A stretch of DNA of 28,203 bases from a virus (Duplodnaviria; Caudoviricetes), in IMG/VR virus record IMGVR_UViG_3300024996_000028, positions 1-28,203 of that record. One strand, 5' to 3'. Below the pieces are notes generated by a model. The model was not told the origin of the DNA and ran no database searches. It saw only the letters and a program-made list of their open reading frames with translations. This document shows positions 16,815 through 24,233 of this stretch, piece by piece. Made by a program: the position numbers and the translations under genes. Numbering within the stretch: the first letter of the stretch is position 1; every line of letters begins with the position of its first letter.

Positions 16815-19583
16815 ATGCCCTTGCTGCGTACCCACTGGCTGACCAGCCCAGCAGCTGCGAAAGCCTATTACAAGTCCGCGGATTACTATGCCGCCACCCC
16901 CGGCGAGTGGCTGGGACGCGGTGCCGAGATGCTCGGACTCCAAGGCCCCGCGAACTACGCCGATTTCGAAAAGCTCTGCGACAACATCGACCCCCGCACG
17001 GGCGAGTTGCTCCGGCCTCATGCCCGCGACGACGGCCGCGTCGGGATGGACCTGACGTTCAACAGCACGAAGAGCGTGGGCCTTGCCCGCGAGCTGGCCG
17101 GGGCCGGTAACGCCGGAGATCCCCGGATCGAGGAAGCCCACCGGGATGCGGTCCGCTATGCCATGTCCTTCGTCGAGGCCGACATGCAGGGCCGCGTGCG
17201 CGTCGGAGGCAAGAACGAGGACCGCACGACCGGCAACATCGTCGCCTGCCACTTCACGCACCGGGACACGAGAATCTCGGCCGAGGACCAGCGCCCCGAT
17301 ATGTCGCTTCACTCCCACGTGTTCGTGCTGAACACGACCCACGACCCTGTCGAGGGAAAGTGGAAGGCCGCCCAGATGGGGCAGATCAAGCACGACGCGC
17401 CGTACTACGAGGCGATCTACCACAACCGCCTGGCCGCGAACCTCCGAGAGCTCGGCTACGGCATCCGCCGGAAGGACAAGGCCTTCGAGATCGAGGGCAT
17501 CTCCGACGACCTGGTGAAGAAGTTCAGCCGCCGCCGGGAGTACATCAAGGCGGTGGCCGCGAAGCTCGGCATCACGACGCCGGAGGGTATGGACAAGCTC
17601 GGGGCGACCACGCGGCTGGGCAAGACCAAGGAGCTGGCGGACGACCTCAACGGCTACTATGTCAGCCGACTCACTGGCAAGGAGCGTCAGGAGCTTGCCA
17701 GCCTCAAGGGGCGGCCGTCGTACCAGAGCAGCGAGCCGGAGGCAGTCCGGTACGCGATCGGCCACCTGTTCGAGCGGAAGAGCGTCGTCGAGGAGAGGCG
17801 GCTCTACGAGACGGCGATCCGGCAGGGCATCGGCTCGGTGACGCCGGAGGGCGTCAAGGCCGAGGCGAAGCGGCAGGGGCTGCTGGTGAAGACCGGCGAG
17901 GCGACCACGCGGGAGGTGCTGGCCGAGGAGGATCGGGTCGTCGCGTTCGCCCGCGAGGGCCGTGGGACGTGCAGGCCGATGGGGTGCGCACGGTCAGAGC
18001 CGCAGAAATCCTCGCTTCCTGACCCAAATCAGGGCGAAATCCGCGCACGCGGCGCACACGGTTCCGCGCCAGCTCAACATCGGCTCTCAGCCTCGCTTTC
18101 CGGCGAAAGCCGCAATTCCTGCGCGCCGACGGCGACACTCTCCCCCGAGCAGGCCGCCATTGCCCGCCACGTCTGGGACTCGCCCGACCGGGTCATCCTG
18201 ATCCGCGGGGCCGCTGGCACGGGCAAGACGCACACGATGAAGGCGACCATCGCCGGGATCGACCGCCCGGTCGTCGTCCTCGCCCCCTCGGCGGACGCCA
18301 GCCGGGGAGTGCTCCGCAAGGAGGGCTTCGAGGAGGCCGATACCGTTGCCCGGTTCCTGATCGACGAGAAATACCGCGAGCAGGCCCGGGGCGGCGTCAT
18401 CTGGGTGGACGAGGCCGGGCTGCTGGGCATCCGGCAGGTCCGGGCCGTCTTCGACGCGGCCGAGGAGCTGGGGGCCCGCGTCGTGCTCCAGGGCGACCGG
18501 AAACAGCACGGTTCGGTCGAGCGTGGGGCGACGCTCCGTGTCCTCGAGCAGTTCGCCGGGCTCCCCGTGGCCGAACTCAAAGACATCCGCCGCCAGCGGG
18601 GTCGCTACAAGGACGCCGTGGCTTCGCTCGCCAAGGGTGACATTCTGGCTGGCTATGATACCCTCGCCTCGCTGGGCTGGGTGAAGGAAGCCCGGGACAG
18701 CAAGCCGCTGGTCGACGAGTACATGGCGGCGCTTGACGCCGGCCGGTCGGTCCTCGTCGTGGCGCCGACGCACGCCGAGGGCGACGGGATCACGAAGGAG
18801 ATCAGGTCGCGGCTCAAGGAACGGGGGATCGTGGGGGAGGATGAGAGGGCTTTTAAGACGCTGGTTCCGCTGCACTGGACGGACGCTGAGAAGGGCGACC
18901 TCGAACGCTTCGACGGGACCGAGACCCTCCAGTTCCACCGCAACTCCGGCACCTTCAAGGCCGGGGACCGGGTCCGGATCGCCAGCTTCAAACGTGGCGA
19001 CTCGTACAAAAGCCCTTCGCACTTCTCTGTCTACCAGGAAGGATGCTGCGCGCTCGCGGTGGGAGACACTATCCGAATCACCGCCAACGGAAAAACCGCC
19101 GACGGCAAGCACAAGCTCAACAACGGGAGCGTCTATTCTGTCGCAGGCTTCACTGAGCAGGGCGACATTCTGCTCGGCAACGGCTGGACCGTGGGCAAGG
19201 ATTACGGGCATCTGGCATGGGGCTACGTTACGACCTCCCATGCTTCGCAAGGCAAGACCGTGGACAGAGTGCTTATAGCGATGGGGCAGCAGTCGCGTCC
19301 CGCCATTTCGGCGGAGCAGTTCTACGTCAGTGTTTCCAGAGGGCGGGAACGGGCGACGATCTACACCGATGCCTCGAGAGATGAGTTGCGAGCCGACATC
19401 CAGAGGTCCGATCCGAGAAAGTCCGCCACGGAGCTGCTGGGGAGGTCGAAGCCGAAGCCCCGGAAGCGAAACCGATTGGTCACCTTCACCGAGCGCGTGA
19501 AGTCTGCGTTCCGCCAGTTGCGCGAAAAGGCCGTCGATGTTATGGGAAACGTGCGAGAGAAGGAGCATTCGCATGCAAGGTAG
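16815..19583 (+). CDS. mobF: MobF (TrwC/TraI-like) conjugative relaxase-helicase
   Basis: N-terminal YY..DYY, GEWLGRGA, DLTFNSTKSV, HUH motif H..TR..PDMSLHSH; helicase GAAGTGKT, DEAG, GDRKQH, TSHASQGKT, YVSVSRGR. Confidence 0.95.
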   Translation: MPLLRTHWLTSPAAAKAYYKSADYYAATPGEWLGRGAEMLGLQGPANYADFEKLCDNIDPRTGELLRPHARDDGRVGMDLTFNSTKSVGLARELAGAGNAGDPRIEEAHRDAVRYAMSFVEADMQGRVRVGGKNEDRTTGNIVACHFTHRDTRISAEDQRPDMSLHSHVFVLNTTHDPVEGKWKAAQMGQIKHDAPYYEAIYHNRLAANLRELGYGIRRKDKAFEIEGISDDLVKKFSRRREYIKAVAAKLGITTPEGMDKLGATTRLGKTKELADDLNGYYVSRLTGKERQELASLKGRPSYQSSEPEAVRYAIGHLFERKSVVEERRLYETAIRQGIGSVTPEGVKAEAKRQGLLVKTGEATTREVLAEEDRVVAFAREGRGTCRPMGCARSEPQKSSLPDPNQGEIRARGAHGSAPAQHRLSASLSGESRNSCAPTATLSPEQAAIARHVWDSPDRVILIRGAAGTGKTHTMKATIAGIDRPVVVLAPSADASRGVLRKEGFEEADTVARFLIDEKYREQARGGVIWVDEAGLLGIRQVRAVFDAAEELGARVVLQGDRKQHGSVERGATLRVLEQFAGLPVAELKDIRRQRGRYKDAVASLAKGDILAGYDTLASLGWVKEARDSKPLVDEYMAALDAGRSVLVVAPTHAEGDGITKEIRSRLKERGIVGEDERAFKTLVPLHWTDAEKGDLERFDGTETLQFHRNSGTFKAGDRVRIASFKRGDSYKSPSHFSVYQEGCCALAVGDTIRITANGKTADGKHKLNNGSVYSVAGFTEQGDILLGNGWTVGKDYGHLAWGYVTTSHASQGKTVDRVLIAMGQQSRPAISAEQFYVSVSRGRERATIYTDASRDELRADIQRSDPRKSATELLGRSKPKPRKRNRLVTFTERVKSAFRQLREKAVDVMGNVREKEHSHAR

Positions 19584-20010
19584 CAGCTTTCTGGACGATC
19601 TCCTCAAGACGAGCGGGCCCAAGCCCGCTACCGGGGCCGATCCAGACGACGGCGAGCTGCCCGACCCGAAAGGGCCGTATCAGGCCCATGCGAGGCCGCT
19701 GGCCAAGGCGGTCTACTCGTTCCACTGCCTGAAAGGAGCCGAGGGCATCGTCAGCTTCCAGTACGTGAACCTCGACAGCCACAGCCAGTTCCAGGCCGGG
19801 GAGCACGGCCAGGTCATCACGCTCCGATTTGCGGGGACTCAGATCTGGCAGGTGACGATCGCTGGCCTGAACCTGTCCCAGCTCTACGACGGCATCCACC
19901 GGCACGTCATCCCGTGGGTGAGGAAGTCCGACCGGGGCTTTTCTGCCTCGGCGGACAAGGAGCCGCTCATCATGGGGATTGATGTCAAAGTGATCCCGAG
20001 GGAAGAGTAG
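19573..20010 (+). CDS. Hypothetical relaxase-associated protein
   Basis: 145 aa from MQGSSFL with AAGGAG RBS, overlapping the relaxase stop. Confidence 0.75.
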   Translation: MQGSSFLDDLLKTSGPKPATGADPDDGELPDPKGPYQAHARPLAKAVYSFHCLKGAEGIVSFQYVNLDSHSQFQAGEHGQVITLRFAGTQIWQVTIAGLNLSQLYDGIHRHVIPWVRKSDRGFSASADKEPLIMGIDVKVIPREE

Positions 20011-20300
20011 GCGGGGAGGGTTCAGCCGATTTTCCCTCACATATCCGCTGGAACGAGTGGCGGATGATGTTCTCGATTCCGCCCCGCTTCAGGTTGCTGA
20101 TCCAGTTGATCTGAACGTCTTCGAGCAGGTCCTTCTCACCGACCCAGAAGACTGCAAAAGCAAGCGGCTCAGGTGCCGCCTTAACCTCTGCGATCAATTG
20201 GCCCAGGCATCGCATGGTTCGCCTGGTCCTCCCGCAGGTTGCTGAGCGAACGGATCACCTCATCCACGTCGCGCTGCGTGAATTCCAAATCGTCGCTCAT
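19985..20300 (-). pseudogene. Hypothetical gene probably split by a 1-bp frameshift (or two tiny ORFs)
   Basis: MSDDLEFTQ..EDQA (from 20300) continues into MRCLGQLIAEV (from 20215) if one base near 20216 is removed. Confidence 0.4.
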
Positions 20301-20650
20301 GCTGCCTCGCTTTCTGGCCAGTGGAAGGCGACGCCGTTGCGCTGGATGATGCGCCCGCCACGCTGGATGATGTGGGGTCCGGTCTGGGCGGCGCGCTCGT
20401 CCGAAATCAGTTCCTCGACGCTGATGCCGTCCTTTATTTTGGAATAGAGCACGTCCCCCACCTGCGGCTCCAGCAGGTGCAGGCTGTCGGGGTGGATGTA
20501 GAACCCGCCGCCATTCGACATGTCCCGGCCATACATTCCGACCGCCTCGCATGCAGAGCGGAGCGAGTCGCCGTTGGCGAACTTGATTTCATGGTGCTTC
20601 GCCATCCACGCGGCGGCAAGCGGGTCGCGGTAGAAGTAGCGCCCGGTCAT
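20297..20650 (-). CDS. Hypothetical phage protein
   Basis: 117 aa, MTGRYFYRDPLAAAWMAKH..YIHPDSLHLLEPQVGD..IIQRNGVAFHWPESEAA. Confidence 0.7.
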   Translation of the reverse strand: MTGRYFYRDPLAAAWMAKHHEIKFANGDSLRSACEAVGMYGRDMSNGGGFYIHPDSLHLLEPQVGDVLYSKIKDGISVEELISDERAAQTGPHIIQRGGRIIQRNGVAFHWPESEAA

Positions 20651-21429
20651 GCGGCCTCGCTCTTCGGCTGGCTTTCGACCAGCCTGAAAAGCCTCTCCGC
20701 CGTTTCCAGCTCGGGATAGTCGAGCAGGCACGGGTCGGAGAGCCCATAAGGGTTGATCTCGATCAGCATGGGCGTCTCGCCGAGCCAGACGTCGACCACG
20801 ATGTCCTGGACGTGCAGCTTCGGCAGGATCGATTCGAGGAACGCGAAGCATCGTGCGGCAACCGCGCCCCGGGCAGCGACCAGTTCCGGGAAGAAATCGC
20901 GGTACTGATACTGCGAAACCCCTGCGATCCGGCCCTCGCGGATGAAGCAACGAAACTCCTCGTGCGCCGGGATGGGCTGGAACTCGCGGAGCAGCAGATA
21001 GCAGGCCGCATCGGCGTACCGGTATTCCGTCAGGTCGTCGAGGATTCGCTCGCTGTTCATGAACGCACCGAGGACGTCGTCTCCGGTCTGGAATCGCGGC
21101 ACATCGGGAAAGAACGTATCCTTCGGGCTGCGCGAACTAAGTTTTACGAAGCAGCCGTCAGGGTCAATCCGCGCTATTGCGGCTGTGATCCGCTGGGCCA
21201 AAGCATTCAGTGCCGTTTCGTTGGGTTTCTCGTCGTACAGGCCGCGGAGAGTTTCCTGATCCGTAGCTGTCAGTTCCAGCAGATCAGATCGGAAGGACAT
21301 CGCCTTCAGGGCCTCCGGCCAGTTCTCGTACAGGCAGGGGCCTACTCGCTTTAGCCATGCGGCCGAGGCCGCCCGGTGCTCTTCGAGCGTGGGCATCCGG
21401 AGTTCGGGTATTTTGAATTTCGTAGTCAT
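20647..21429 (-). CDS. Cdc123/D123-like (R2K clade) ATP-grasp protein
   Basis: FVKLSSRSPKD, SERILDDL, LLLREF, EFRCF, GVSQY, VVDV, LIEINP. Confidence 0.85.
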   Translation of the reverse strand: MTTKFKIPELRMPTLEEHRAASAAWLKRVGPCLYENWPEALKAMSFRSDLLELTATDQETLRGLYDEKPNETALNALAQRITAAIARIDPDGCFVKLSSRSPKDTFFPDVPRFQTGDDVLGAFMNSERILDDLTEYRYADAACYLLLREFQPIPAHEEFRCFIREGRIAGVSQYQYRDFFPELVAARGAVAARCFAFLESILPKLHVQDIVVDVWLGETPMLIEINPYGLSDPCLLDYPELETAERLFRLVESQPKSEAA

Positions 21430-21731
21430 AATCTTCCTCCAATTCGTTTAGTCATTTCGTCGTTCTTGCCTTCGAGCCACATGAACCGATCGCACGGCCA
21501 GTCGCCGGACTTCGACTTCCGCCACGCGAATCCCCGGCTCTGGCTGATCCCGAACACAGTCCAGCCCTTCTCCCGCCGGACGCGCTCGACCAGGGCCAGC
21601 TCCGCCTCGGTGATCGGCTTCCCGCCCTGCTCAGGCGGGCGGTCCTCGACGTGGATCCGGTCGCCTTCGACCCAGAGGTCGCGGGCGTTGCTCAGGCTGG
21701 CGTGGTAGGTGATGATCGACGGGGAGGTCAT
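21426..21731 (-). CDS. Hypothetical protein
   Basis: 101 aa, ATGA overlaps. Confidence 0.65.
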   Translation of the reverse strand: MTSPSIITYHASLSNARDLWVEGDRIHVEDRPPEQGGKPITEAELALVERVRREKGWTVFGISQSRGFAWRKSKSGDWPCDRFMWLEGKNDEMTKRIGGRL

Positions 21732-21940
21732 AGAATCCCCGCCTTTGCCTTCAGAGCGGCGATCTGCTGTTCGAGCCTCTCTAACTCGTCAGCGATGGGC
21801 TCGTACTTGTCGACCACCGACTGAAGGTGCTCGAAGAGGAACTGCGACAGGCTCTTCTTCTCGTACGCTTCGATGAAGCGTTCCGCCTTGCGCCACGTTT
21901 CGGCGTTCTCATCCTTGATGTAAATGGTCTTGGTGGTCAT
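21728..21940 (-). CDS. Small RHH-like/coiled-coil protein
   Basis: KTIYIKDENAETWRKAE..KKSLSQFL pattern. Confidence 0.6.
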   Translation of the reverse strand: MTTKTIYIKDENAETWRKAERFIEAYEKKSLSQFLFEHLQSVVDKYEPIADELERLEQQIAALKAKAGIL

Positions 21941-22455
21941 GCCGCCCTCCCTGTTGCCTCTGCGATGGCGTCGGTGATCGCGTCCAGGTCGTCGTTCGCG
22001 TACTCGCTAGATGCAATCTCGTCGAGCAGCTCCTGAGCTCCTGAGGGATTGTCCAGCATGACCAGATTCGCGGCCTTCTCCGCGAGATCGCGAGCCCAGA
22101 GCAATCGCGAGTGGGCCTTCTCGATGGTCTCGAGCAACCTGTGGCTCGCGTGCATCACGCGCAGCCGGGCCTCCACCTCCTCGTGCGAGCCGAACGGTAT
22201 CCCGGTGATCCGCTGGAAGGCTTCCTCGGCTCCCTCGCGGGTGGCGAAATCGCCGATGGCCATGACGCCCTCGCCGGGGATGTGGCCGTATAGGGTCCAG
22301 ACGTGGGCCTCGTGGGGTTCGCAGACCTCGAAGCTCAGGCCGTTCGGGTCGGGTTCGCCAGCGTCGTTGAGGCGGCGGCAGGGGCAGATCTCGTAGTTGT
22401 GATATACCTTCACCTGTACAGGCTCCAGGTTTCTCGTTTCAACGGGCGAGCTCAT
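21937..22455 (-). CDS. Hypothetical protein whose native N-terminus (23610-23624) is displaced by the TnpB element; new start supplied by the element's right end
   Basis: ATG 22455 overlaps the TnpB stop; NYEICPCRR.. begins immediately after the TCAC right end. Confidence 0.7.
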   Translation of the reverse strand: MSSPVETRNLEPVQVKVYHNYEICPCRRLNDAGEPDPNGLSFEVCEPHEAHVWTLYGHIPGEGVMAIGDFATREGAEEAFQRITGIPFGSHEEVEARLRVMHASHRLLETIEKAHSRLLWARDLAEKAANLVMLDNPSGAQELLDEIASSEYANDDLDAITDAIAEATGRAA

Positions 22456-22520
22456 GCTACATCCCTCCACGAAGGCCGTATCCCAGCCCGTTTAATGTTT
22501 TTCGCGGCATTCGTGTCCCG
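22379..22520 (-). ncRNA. Putative TnpB omega-RNA (reRNA) scaffold plus flank-derived guide
   Basis: The tnpB 3' end runs into ...GAAACGAGAAACCTGGAGCCTGTACAGGTGAAGGTATATCAC (hairpin ending TCAC), followed by the predicted guide AACTACGAGATCTGCCCCTG. The 5' boundary is approximate. Confidence 0.6.
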
Positions 22521-23609
22521 GCAATCCACGTACCCGCAGTGCGGGCAGACATGGGTCCGGACGCTCAACGCCTTCTGGACGATCTCGCCGCACGACGAAC
22601 ATTTCTGGCTCGTATATTGCGGCGGCACTGCGATCACAAGACGACCAGCTTTCTCGGCTTTATCTTCCATGAATTGACGCAGCATTCCCCAAGAGGAATC
22701 CGATATCGCCCTCGCCAGATGGCTGTTCTTGACCATGTTGGACGGGCGCAAATCCTCGATGACGATGGTGCCGTAGGCATTGACATAATGCCGAGCAGCC
22801 TTGTGCAGATAGTCTTTCCGCTGGTTGGCGATCTTCTCGTGGATACGCGCAACCATCTTCGCGGCCTTCCGGCGGCGGTTACTTCCCTTCTTGCGGCGAG
22901 ATAGGCGTCGTTGCGCCTTCGCTAGACGCCTGAGGCTTCGCTTAAGGTGCTGCGGGTTGGCGACCTTATTGCCTTCCGAGTCCGCGATCAGATGCGTGAT
23001 GCCGAAGTCCAGGCCGATAGCGTTGTCGTTCGCAGGCAGCGGCTGGGGCTCATCCTCGCAGACCGCTTGCAAGTACCACCCCGAAGGACGCTTCACGATT
23101 CGGCAGAATTTCAGCTTACCTTCAATCTCGCGGTGCTTAACGAAGCGGATGCGACCGCCGAGCATCTTGCCTGCTTTGAAATAACAGCTATCGATATTGT
23201 TAGCCACCGCATCGCGGAACTGGAGGGTATGCCAACGGTTCGCCGACTTGAAGCGAGGGAAGCCAACTTTACGGCCCTCTTTGATGCCCGCAAAGAAGTT
23301 TGCAAATGAACGATGCAACCGCCTGAGCGTAGTATCTACGAACCACGATGGCATATCGGGGTGTTGAGTCTTGCCATGCTGTTTGTCATGGGAAAAATAA
23401 TTAAGGTGCTTCCCAGTGGAGCGGTAATGGTCGATCAGTTCTTGCAGTCCTTGATTATAGATATCACGTGTCAGCCGCAGATTCTTCACGAGCAATGACT
23501 TCTGCGCTTTTGTCGGGTTCAGTATATATTCATAGGTGATCATCAAATTGACTATAGTCGAAACCTTGCGGAAGTAAAGCAAAATGGTGCGGCATTTAGG
23601 GGCCGCAAA
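22399..23609 (-). mobile_element. Non-autonomous IS200/IS605-family (IS1341-like, TnpB-only) element
   Basis: Left-end hairpin TGCGGC/GCCGCA (23588-23607) just after TTTAT; right end at TCAC (22399); no tnpA; lower GC than the flanks. Confidence 0.8.
22452..23543 (-). CDS. tnpB: RNA-guided endonuclease TnpB
   Basis: HTH MITYEYILNPT; GFPRFKS; RuvC IGLDFG, IEDL, RDTNAAKNI; Zn finger CSSC/CPHC. All three catalytic residues are present. Confidence 0.95.
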   Translation of the reverse strand: MITYEYILNPTKAQKSLLVKNLRLTRDIYNQGLQELIDHYRSTGKHLNYFSHDKQHGKTQHPDMPSWFVDTTLRRLHRSFANFFAGIKEGRKVGFPRFKSANRWHTLQFRDAVANNIDSCYFKAGKMLGGRIRFVKHREIEGKLKFCRIVKRPSGWYLQAVCEDEPQPLPANDNAIGLDFGITHLIADSEGNKVANPQHLKRSLRRLAKAQRRLSRRKKGSNRRRKAAKMVARIHEKIANQRKDYLHKAARHYVNAYGTIVIEDLRPSNMVKNSHLARAISDSSWGMLRQFMEDKAEKAGRLVIAVPPQYTSQKCSSCGEIVQKALSVRTHVCPHCGYVDCRDTNAAKNIKRAGIRPSWRDVA

Positions 23610-23676
23610 ATAAAATCCATTCATGGGGAATCCCCTTCCAGTTGATGGGCGGCCCGTCTCCGAGCCGCCCGGTTGA

Positions 23677-23949
23677 TTACTTCGCCGTCACGTTGTCGCG
23701 TTCCTTCGCGGCCTTGGCGTCGGACCGCTTCTGCATCTTGATCCACGCGTAGGCTTCGCGGAGCAGTTCGGCCATCGGCAGCATGTCGTCGGCATTCAGT
23801 TCCTTGGACTCTTTCCAGGTATCGTCGCCGGCCTTATAGGACCGCTGGGGAGTGGCGGAGTAGTAGGTTTTGCCCTCGGTGTTCGTGTTCCGCCAGATGA
23901 CGACGGAGAGGCAACCGTCGCGGAGTTTGTGGGCAGGTGCGTTAGACAT
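23677..23949 (-). CDS. Small putative ssDNA-binding beta protein of mobile elements
   Basis: PAHKLRDGCLSVVIWRN..YYS..RSYK..WKES; AAAGGA RBS; GC hairpin 23647-23670 downstream. Confidence 0.75.
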   Translation of the reverse strand: MSNAPAHKLRDGCLSVVIWRNTNTEGKTYYSATPQRSYKAGDDTWKESKELNADDMLPMAELLREAYAWIKMQKRSDAKAAKERDNVTAK

Positions 23950-23983
23950 ATCGTGTTCCTTTCTTCTCTAAGAACGCTTCATT

Positions 23984-24110
23984 GCGTCCTTGTAGGATGC
24001 GCCCGCATCAGCCTCAGCGGAGGCAAAGCGCACGGGTCAACCTGAATTGCGGAGGGTCCCGAAGGGAAACCGTCATTCTGGTTTACCCGCTCCGCGGCTG
24101 ATGCAGCTTC
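23984..24110. promoter_or_regulatory. Frpo-like single-stranded-DNA promoter hairpin upstream of the 23677-23949 gene
   Basis: Nested stem GCATCAGCC/GGCTGATGC, GCGGAG/CTCCGC, CGGGTCAACC/GGTTTACCCG, GAAT/ATTC, CCC-GAA-GGG. The 3' arm reads TTTACC-16-CAGCTT; the 5' arm is complementary to TTGACC. Confidence 0.6.
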
Positions 24111-24233
24111 CGTCATCAAGGCCGACTTGAAGCGTCCGCCAAGTTCGAAGGGACACGCTGCCGTAACCGCCAGCCCTGAACTCTTGAGGGCTGCCCTGTC
24201 GGCGGGATGAGGGGGATACGGGGCGGCCATGGC

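What the first reader, a model, noticed from the sequence alone, without database searches (positions are those of the whole stretch)
21937..23624. TnpB-only transposon inserted so that the interrupted gene stays translatable: host start feeds TnpB, and the omega-RNA region encodes a replacement start
Seen: deleting 22399-23609 gives an in-frame gene ATG AAT GGA TTT TAT|AAC TAC GAG ATC (MNGFY-NYEICPCRR...). This places TTTAT at the left flank (a TAM-type motif) and TCAC at the right end. With the element present, the host ATG and RBS read in frame through the left end into TnpB (the 390-aa ORF). The TnpB stop overlaps a new ATG (ATGA, 22452-22455) whose 19 codons run through the right end/omega-RNA in frame into the rest of the host gene. 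Established: TnpB uses a right-end RNA with a flank-derived guide to cut the empty site, and IStrons reduce insertion damage by splicing. Inference: this element may avoid inactivating its target through translational coupling instead of splicing, so the same ~55 nt act as transposon end, guide scaffold and coding sequence.
Basis: partly seen in the sequence, partly recalled or inferred. Interest (0 to 1): 0.8.

Follow-up and report, generated by a model that had tools for sequence, protein, structure and literature searches.

The report
Transposon end restarts the split gene
A small TnpB-carrying jumping gene sits between codons 5 and 6 of a conserved gene, and its far end carries a ribosome-binding site and an in-frame start codon inside its own guide-RNA sequence, which likely keeps the interrupted gene translated without any splicing.

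Summary
The layout is as described. A 1,211-bp tnpB-only IS200/IS605-type element (23609-22399, minus strand) splits a conserved, functionally unknown gene after codon 5. The right end TCAC is real: it lies at the relatives' distance from the omega-RNA motif, and the pseudoknot covaries (97.8% of cells paired). A second start, GTG 22413, would give a native-length N-terminus resembling the family consensus. Two parts of the reading fail or stay open. tnpB has its own leaderless-type promoter and starts at 23543 in relatives, so the host-start fusion (13% by chance) is probably incidental. TTTAT is unverified: relatives with a readable left end use TGAC or CTAC, and no empty allele was found. 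A restart is not enriched family-wide (6 of 41 versus 23% shuffled), but one phage relative (L008) shows the same arrangement. This scan noted right-end restarts before on other DNA; my paper searches found no description. No expression data.

The parts
23647..23670 (-). GC-rich hairpin upstream of the host gene (host sequence, not element)
   Evidence: Seen in the sequence; intact relative L031 has a hairpin at the same place before its RBS and ATG
23634..23639 (-). Native Shine-Dalgarno (GGAAGG) of the host gene
   Evidence: -7.2 kcal/mol with a generic anti-SD motif; same word upstream of the L031 start
23610..23624 (-). Stranded 5' stub of the host gene, codons 1-5, ending in TTTAT (putative target motif, unverified)
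   Evidence: resemblance to the family start P about 0.005-0.007; 10 of 15 bases match L031
23544..23609 (-). Short left segment of the element (66 nt): hairpin 23607-23588, -35-like TTTACT 23578-23573, -10-like TATAGT 23556-23551; open in the tnpB frame
   Evidence: 10 of 11 relatives with a readable left end have 96-126 nt; left boundary inferred from the host frame only
22452..23543 (-). tnpB, 363 aa from its likely native ATG; RuvC D179, E263, D343 and both CxxC motifs present
   Evidence: third-position GC 0.66 against 0.76-0.85 in four neighbouring coding stretches
22474..22488 (-). omega-RNA first stem-loop inside the tnpB 3' end; loop GATA (22482-22479) pairs with TATC (22404-22401) as a pseudoknot
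   Evidence: 98.4% and 97.8% of cells paired, 0 of 500 shuffles, slid controls 29-44%
22464..22468 (-). Shine-Dalgarno GGAGG within the omega-RNA, 8 nt before the restart ATG
   Evidence: -9.8 kcal/mol; 0.7% of 3000 random minus-strand positions are as strong
22399..22455 (-). Element-encoded 19 codons from ATG 22455 (overlapping the tnpB TGA) through the right end, in frame with the host gene
   Evidence: omega-RNA motif at 22443-22431 shared with relatives
22399..22426 (-). Second possible restart: GGAG (22426-22423), 9 nt, GTG 22413, then K-V-Y-H; would give a native-length start (family consensus M-K-V/P-Y/F-D)
   Evidence: -5.6 kcal/mol, reached by 13% of random positions; lies inside the terminal hairpin
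22399..22402 (-). Right-end cleavage word TCAC
   Evidence: 28 nt after GAGAA, as in L036-L043; pseudoknot strand adjacent
22383..22398 (-). Predicted guide (flank-derived; 16 nt assumed)
   Evidence: Inference from the TnpB model; no second exact match in G000; 14 of 16 match to intact relative L031
21937..22398 (-). Intact remainder of the host gene (153 codons, unknown function); its stop overlaps the next gene's ATG
   Evidence: no Pfam, PHROG or PDB fold match

Best explanation
A tnpB-only IS200/IS605-type element sits between codons 5 and 6 of a conserved gene, and the gene is likely still translated from the element's own Shine-Dalgarno and ATG (22455), which lie in the omega-RNA and overlap the tnpB stop. 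tnpB is probably made as a 363-aa protein from its own leaderless-type promoter. Ribosomes ending tnpB would melt the hairpin that holds the ATG and re-initiate, giving the host protein a 19-residue element-derived start in place of its 5-residue one, ahead of the first beta-strand, and would keep the stop-start-coupled genes downstream supplied. The Shine-Dalgarno and ATG appear to be built-in features of the omega-RNA in a few related elements. This insertion probably survived because its phase happened to fit (a survivor filter), not because the whole family has evolved a restart. Shown: sequence layout, right end, pseudoknot covariation, intact gene. Inferred: translation, coupling, TnpB activity.
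For: Shine-Dalgarno -9.8 kcal/mol, second strongest of 8 window starts tested and in the top 0.7% of random positions. The downstream gene keeps 37 of 38 columns conserved in at least 90% of homologs, the one loss being the junction residue. Its first flank start is codon 46, past three predicted beta-strands; beta-1 begins at the first residue after the junction (mean pLDDT 92). The next two gene pairs are also joined by ATGA overlaps. The same omega-RNA position carries Shine-Dalgarno plus ATG 55-56 nt from the end in L006, L008 and L011. In L008 (56% identical TnpB, phage contig) that ATG is in frame with an intact 256-codon gene whose 10 relative loci (9 distinct ones printed) start about at the junction, and whose first flank start would cut the conserved N-terminal strand. 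A TTGAC word upstream in 15 of 17 relatives and no Shine-Dalgarno before tnpB in 17 of 17; L005 shares the GACTATAGTCAA box.
Against: No expression data. Shine-Dalgarno plus start with a frame open to the end occurs in only 6 of 41 relatives, below 23% of shuffles; some start codon is available in 63 of 123 frames, so a fit can be luck. An intact gene is also expected if the insertion is recent, and 42 of 68 homologs retain conserved columns at least as well. The ATG and part of the Shine-Dalgarno lie in a predicted hairpin. L006 has the same start but runs into a stop one codon into the flank, and L058 interrupts a gene with no in-frame start. The host gene's function and need are unknown. 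The 41 ends include near-duplicates.
Confidence: 0.55

Rival explanations
1. Chance fit in a recent, gene-inactivating insertion: the Shine-Dalgarno-like word and ATG are by-products of omega-RNA sequence, and the dispensable host gene has not yet decayed.
For: No family-wide enrichment; starts are common in right ends; single copy; the ATG is hairpin-bound; tnpB third-position GC is still unlike its neighbours.
Against: The stub carries two residues rare or absent in the family (Gly3 in 2 of 110, Tyr5 in 0 of 110) and the left end looks shortened, which suggests time has passed while the downstream gene stayed intact; strong Shine-Dalgarno, stop-start overlap and correct phase occur together; L008 repeats the pattern.
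Confidence: 0.25
2. The right end was remodelled after insertion (point changes or a short conversion tract from an intact allele) to copy the native start, and GTG 22413 gives a native-length protein while the omega-RNA fold is kept.
For: The last 15 bases read start-K-V-Y-H, 10.6 bits against the family profile at positions 2-4 versus 3.2 for the true stub; 11 of 15 bases match L031; none of the right ends printed reads so; 41 of 41 have GAG at -12..-5 and the window does not; P = 0.015 for a K-V-level score with GG fixed, 0.0007 with a start codon too.
Against: Y-H is fixed by the pseudoknot and cleavage word; GGTA-NN-TCAC/TCAA ends occur in 10 of 28 more distant elements; a start codon at -15 occurs in 7 of 41; the Shine-Dalgarno is weak and hairpin-bound; the test was made after seeing the match; DNA of the 77-78% identical relatives could not be obtained.
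Confidence: 0.12
3. One reading: the host ribosome-binding site drives a 390-aa TnpB fusion, which is needed for coupling into the restart, as an evolved alternative to splicing.
For: The frame is open from 23624, the native Shine-Dalgarno is intact, and translation across the terminator-like hairpin at 23607-23588 could reduce polarity. Some fusion protein may well be made.
Against: Chance 13%; the left segment is open in the tnpB frame in only 2 of 11 relatives; 75 of 84 anchored homologs have no extension over 8 residues, and the 9 extensions look unrelated to one another; tnpB has its own promoter-like site.
Confidence: 0.08

Closest known systems
tnpB-only IS200/IS605 elements (IS1341 type; ISDra2 and ISGst paradigms; PMC10055086, passages read)
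   Same: TnpB with three Pfam domains, similarity to solved ISDra2 TnpB (E 9e-56), omega-RNA overlapping the tnpB 3' end, right-end word TCAC, no target duplication, no tnpA; TTTAT is a published TAM for ISGst2.
   Different: Left segment short and without a recognisable guide-hairpin; the word 5' of the terminal hairpin is GAAA, not the GAAG that goes with TCAC in relatives; the right end supplies a Shine-Dalgarno and in-frame start.
IStrons (10.1101/2023.11.20.567912, passages read; PMC4227781, search listing only)
   Same: TnpB element inside a gene whose right end does double duty; the omega-RNA pseudoknot with the scaffold 3' end is described there.
   Different: No group I intron (no Rfam match; only 66 nt before tnpB); rescue would be by re-initiation, changes the N-terminus, and works only near a start and in one phase.
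Phage Aeh1 nrdA split by mobE (PMC3045599, abstract read)
   Same: A mobile nuclease fragments a gene without splicing, and insertion-derived sequence becomes protein tails.
   Different: There both halves are large and assemble as proteins; here only five codons are stranded, and the nuclease is RNA-guided.
[quoted passage not shown]
   Same: The element integrates at a gene's 5' end (PMC4344509, passages read); that it supplies a replacement 5' end is recalled, not seen in those passages.
   Different: Site-specific integrase with a dedicated attP copy of one target; here there is no integrase and no demonstrated site specificity.

Membership tests
IS200/IS605, tnpB-only (IS1341 type) | TnpB with HTH, OrfB_IS605 and zinc-ribbon domains and RuvC triad | tested here: met
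IS200/IS605, tnpB-only (IS1341 type) | omega-RNA scaffold at the right end with pseudoknot and terminal TCAN | tested here: met
   Rfam has no matching model
IS200/IS605, tnpB-only (IS1341 type) | Right-end guide word matching the cleavage word (GAAG with TCAC; rule recalled from IS608) | tested here: not met
   Window has GAAA; nearly all relatives' ends follow the rule (several were picked with a regex that favours it; L005 also departs)
IS200/IS605, tnpB-only (IS1341 type) | Left-end hairpin with guide word matching the target motif | tested here: inconclusive
   A hairpin exists, but no AA-A word; one CAAG without a following hairpin
IS200/IS605, tnpB-only (IS1341 type) | Insertion 3' of a 4-5 nt motif without duplication, shown by an empty allele | tested here: inconclusive
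   No empty allele found; junction inferred from the host protein family
IS200/IS605, tnpB-only (IS1341 type) | No tnpA in the element; mobilised in trans | tested here: met
   No room for tnpA in the element; no Y1 transposase found in G000, 94% complete; present mobility not shown
IS200/IS605, tnpB-only (IS1341 type) | RNA-guided, TAM-dependent cleavage | not testable with these tools
   Needs a cleavage assay
IStron | Group I intron at the left end | tested here: not met
   No Rfam match at E up to 1 in 21500-24200; left segment only 66 nt
TldR (nuclease-dead TnpB repressors) | Loss of RuvC catalytic residues | tested here: not met
   D179, E263 and D343 present

The most novel reading that the evidence does not exclude
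A subgroup of phage- and plasmid-borne tnpB elements carries a Shine-Dalgarno and ATG built into the omega-RNA as a splicing-free way to occupy gene starts, and in this copy the terminal hairpin has further been reshaped to spell the host's own N-terminus (start-K-V-Y), so one 57-base stretch works as transposon end, nuclease guide scaffold and coding sequence while TnpB cuts intact alleles of the same gene on competing mobile elements.
Probability: 0.2. Interest if true: 0.75.

Novelty: new variant of a known kind. Interest (0 to 1): 0.48.

Why it matters
If translation from the right end is real, IS200/IS605 elements have a second, splicing-free route to sit in needed genes. Gene starts become safe landing sites, and the omega-RNA faces a coding constraint much as IStron ends face a splicing one. 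It also affects annotation: callers give TnpB a false 27-residue leader and the host protein an element-derived start (both are in the protein collection as P0121 and P0001). The test is cheap. This locus alone is one copy in a gene of unknown function, so it supports the idea without establishing it.

Tried and rejected
Empty allele: none in viral contigs (3 distant intact relatives), 40 related genomes, 400 genomes of the phylum, phage or plasmid records. No joint in 4 of 6 listed runs laid (contigs drop rare variants, one run may be the source). No RNA holder listed. Close element copies: single copy in G000; best DNA relative 68% (L005); a pattern for the window-type right end found 0 viral stretches and 1 metagenome stretch, the window's own contig. 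P0122 and P0123 (77-78%) are protein-only here. Considered that TCAC is host sequence because the last 15 bases resemble the host start: rejected by distance and pseudoknot covariation. Considered GGTA as unique to the window: true against the first 41 ends, not against 28 more distant ones (about three of those calls look spurious). Three of five relatives with a start plus long flank frame (L018, L025, L047) look like spurious or antisense frames by eye, and L017 has its own ATG; L077 and L132 were not followed. Mapping TAM-contact residues onto ISDra2 TnpB was ambiguous because of a gap in that region. Host function: no Pfam, PHROG or PDB match; the viral fold library was not searched. Folding z-score of the right end alone was weak (-0.96). 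Paper searches without a description of the restart: (listings only); PMC13565253 had no 'start codon' passage. The library lacks most subscription papers, and no supplements were read.

Full report
Observation. On the minus strand, removing 22399-23609 (1,211 bp) leaves one open 158-codon gene, and shifting the cut by one base breaks it. The ORF 23624-22452 is TnpB by three Pfam domains, the first starting at residue 29. Its TGA overlaps ATG 22455, from which 19 codons run into the host gene. The element is lower in GC than its surroundings, single-copy, and no Y1 transposase was found in the 94% complete genome. The contig has the lowest GC of the 176 contigs over 10 kb and carries a TrwC relaxase, a primase-polymerase and a helicase, so the setting is a mobile or prophage region; its true host is uncertain.

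The host gene. It has 130 homologs at E up to 0.001, 120 listed including itself. Of 119, 110 could be anchored; 87 start exactly five residues before the anchor, with consensus M-K-P/V-F/Y-D and Asp in 108. The intact relative L031 shows the same hairpin, GGAAGG and ATG layout as the window's left flank. ATG 23624 is therefore the native start, and the insertion lies after codon 5. The stub resembles the family start more than chance (P 0.005-0.007) but has Gly3 (2 of 110) and Tyr5 (0 of 110). The remainder is intact: 37 of 38 conserved columns, the loss being the junction residue. A confident model (mean pLDDT 92) puts the first beta-strand at residue 6, right after the junction. The first start codon in the flank is codon 46. 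Without an element-supplied start the gene would lose three strands. No family or fold match gives its function.

The right end is real. Relatives at 54-62% TnpB identity carry the same GTTGAA-N-CGAGAA motif with TCAC 28 bases later, as in the window. In a 23-sequence alignment the loop of the first stem-loop pairs with the bases before the end in 97.8% of cells, three of four pairs change on both sides, no shuffle of 500 reaches this, and slid controls give 29-44%. I named the structure from these sequences, so the controls lean in its favour; the double-sided changes are the evidence. The window keeps the pairing with its own letters (GATA with TATC). This pseudoknot is described for TnpB omega-RNAs (10.1101/2023.11.20.567912, passages).

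The left end is not verified. In 8 relatives (TnpB 40-62% identical) TGAC lies 12-19 bases before a CAAG guide, and in 3 CTAC lies at a similar place; I saw these by eye and then located them by script; the pairing rule is recalled from IS608. Ten of these 11 left ends are 96-126 bases long; the window has 66 and no such layout. The family's codons 4-5 (F/Y-D) would often spell TGAC or TGAT exactly at this junction, so the original target may have been that, with the stub changing later (inference). TTTAT is still possible: it is a published TAM (PMC10055086, passages), and this TnpB differs from its relatives at residues 66-68, though I could not map these to TAM contacts.

Does the host start feed TnpB? 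The frame is open and the native Shine-Dalgarno is intact, so some fusion may be made. But homologs align from the residue-28 methionine; 75 of 84 anchored homologs have no extension over 8 residues. The window has a -35/-10 match ending 7 bases before ATG 23543 (3 sites found, 1.0 expected), with no Shine-Dalgarno. Of 17 relatives, 15 show TTGAC upstream and none has a Shine-Dalgarno stronger than -2.8 kcal/mol; L005 shares the same -10 box. An open in-frame join has a 13% chance, and 2 of 11 relatives' left ends are open in the tnpB frame. I read tnpB as leaderless and the fusion as incidental.

The restart. ATG 22455 has GGAGG eight bases upstream, -9.8 kcal/mol, matched by 0.7% of random positions. 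It overlaps the tnpB stop, as the next genes of the operon overlap each other. It sits in a predicted hairpin loop, which ribosomes ending tnpB would open (inference). A second start, GTG 22413 with a weaker GGAG, would give exactly five residues before the junction, reading start-K-V-Y-H. This scores 10.6 bits against the family profile, more than the true stub, and the window lacks the GAG seen in 41 of 41 relatives. Much of the match is built in, however: Y-H is set by the pseudoknot and cleavage word, GGTA ends occur in 10 of 28 more distant elements, and 7 of 41 have a start at -15. A residue of about 1 in 100 to 1 in 1,000 remains, tested after the fact.

Generality. From 59 loci I read 41 right ends; 18 had none recognisable or were cut, and several of the 41 are near-duplicates. 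A start with an open frame to the end exists in 63 of 123 frames. With a Shine-Dalgarno required, 6 of 41 qualify against 23% of shuffles: no family-wide enrichment. Yet L006, L008 and L011 have Shine-Dalgarno plus ATG 55-56 bases from the end, as the window has at 57. In L008 that ATG is in frame with an intact 256-codon phage gene; its relatives start about at the junction and its first flank start would cut the conserved first strand. L006 meets a stop at once, and L058 interrupts a gene with no restart. This fits a built-in start in some elements plus survival of the insertions whose phase fits.

Comparison and novelty. The element works like a tnpB-only IS200/IS605 element and meets the protein and omega-RNA tests, fails the right-end guide-word test, and has an unresolved left end, so it may no longer be mobile. 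It is not an IStron or a TldR. Analogues are the mobE-split nrdA (PMC3045599, abstract) and SXT in prfC (integration site seen; replacement of the 5' end recalled). Five paper searches found no description of a right-end restart. Earlier notes of this scan report the same idea on other DNA at least seven times; they are unchecked AI notes that I did not test, and none matches this TnpB by sequence.

Verdict. Functional restart about 0.67 in either form (0.55 ATG, 0.12 GTG mimic), 0.75 with the full relay; chance 0.25. New variant of a known kind; interest 0.48.

Noticed in passing
L017:2612-2632: The right end stops one base before the ATG of a ParB-domain gene, and the end's GGAG lies nine bases before that ATG, so the element may supply the Shine-Dalgarno.
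   Followed up: partly
L008:2585-3412: Second case of an omega-RNA Shine-Dalgarno and ATG in frame with an intact phage gene; its left junction and original start could not be fixed.
   Followed up: partly
window 16815-24200: A TrwC relaxase-helicase gene and a run of small minus-strand genes, including a D123/ATP-grasp protein (20647-21429), look like a mobilisable element inside a prophage-like region; L031 also has a relaxase-like ORF beside the host-gene homolog (by eye).
   Followed up: no
window 15264-16072: IS5/IS4-type transposase (DUF4096) in two overlapping frames, suggesting a programmed frameshift or a broken gene.
   Followed up: no
window 23547-23560; L005, L039, L040, L042: A palindrome around GACTATAGTC overlaps the -10 box here and in L005 but the -35 box in L039, L040 and L042; a possible operator that has shifted position.
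   Followed up: no
L002 (G000:C190, about 17895-18340): A second homolog of the host gene in the same assembly, fused behind an N-terminal domain; P0107 has a similar layout with DUF6900.
   Followed up: no
L003, L005, L007: Phage-borne relatives also lack a recognisable left-end hairpin while keeping the promoter-like site; L005 keeps the omega-RNA.
   Followed up: partly
G000:C342: 62% GC against about 70% for the assembly, and host-gene homologs with names are from Planctomycetes while 0 of 400 genomes of G000's phylum have one; the contig may be mis-binned.
   Followed up: no
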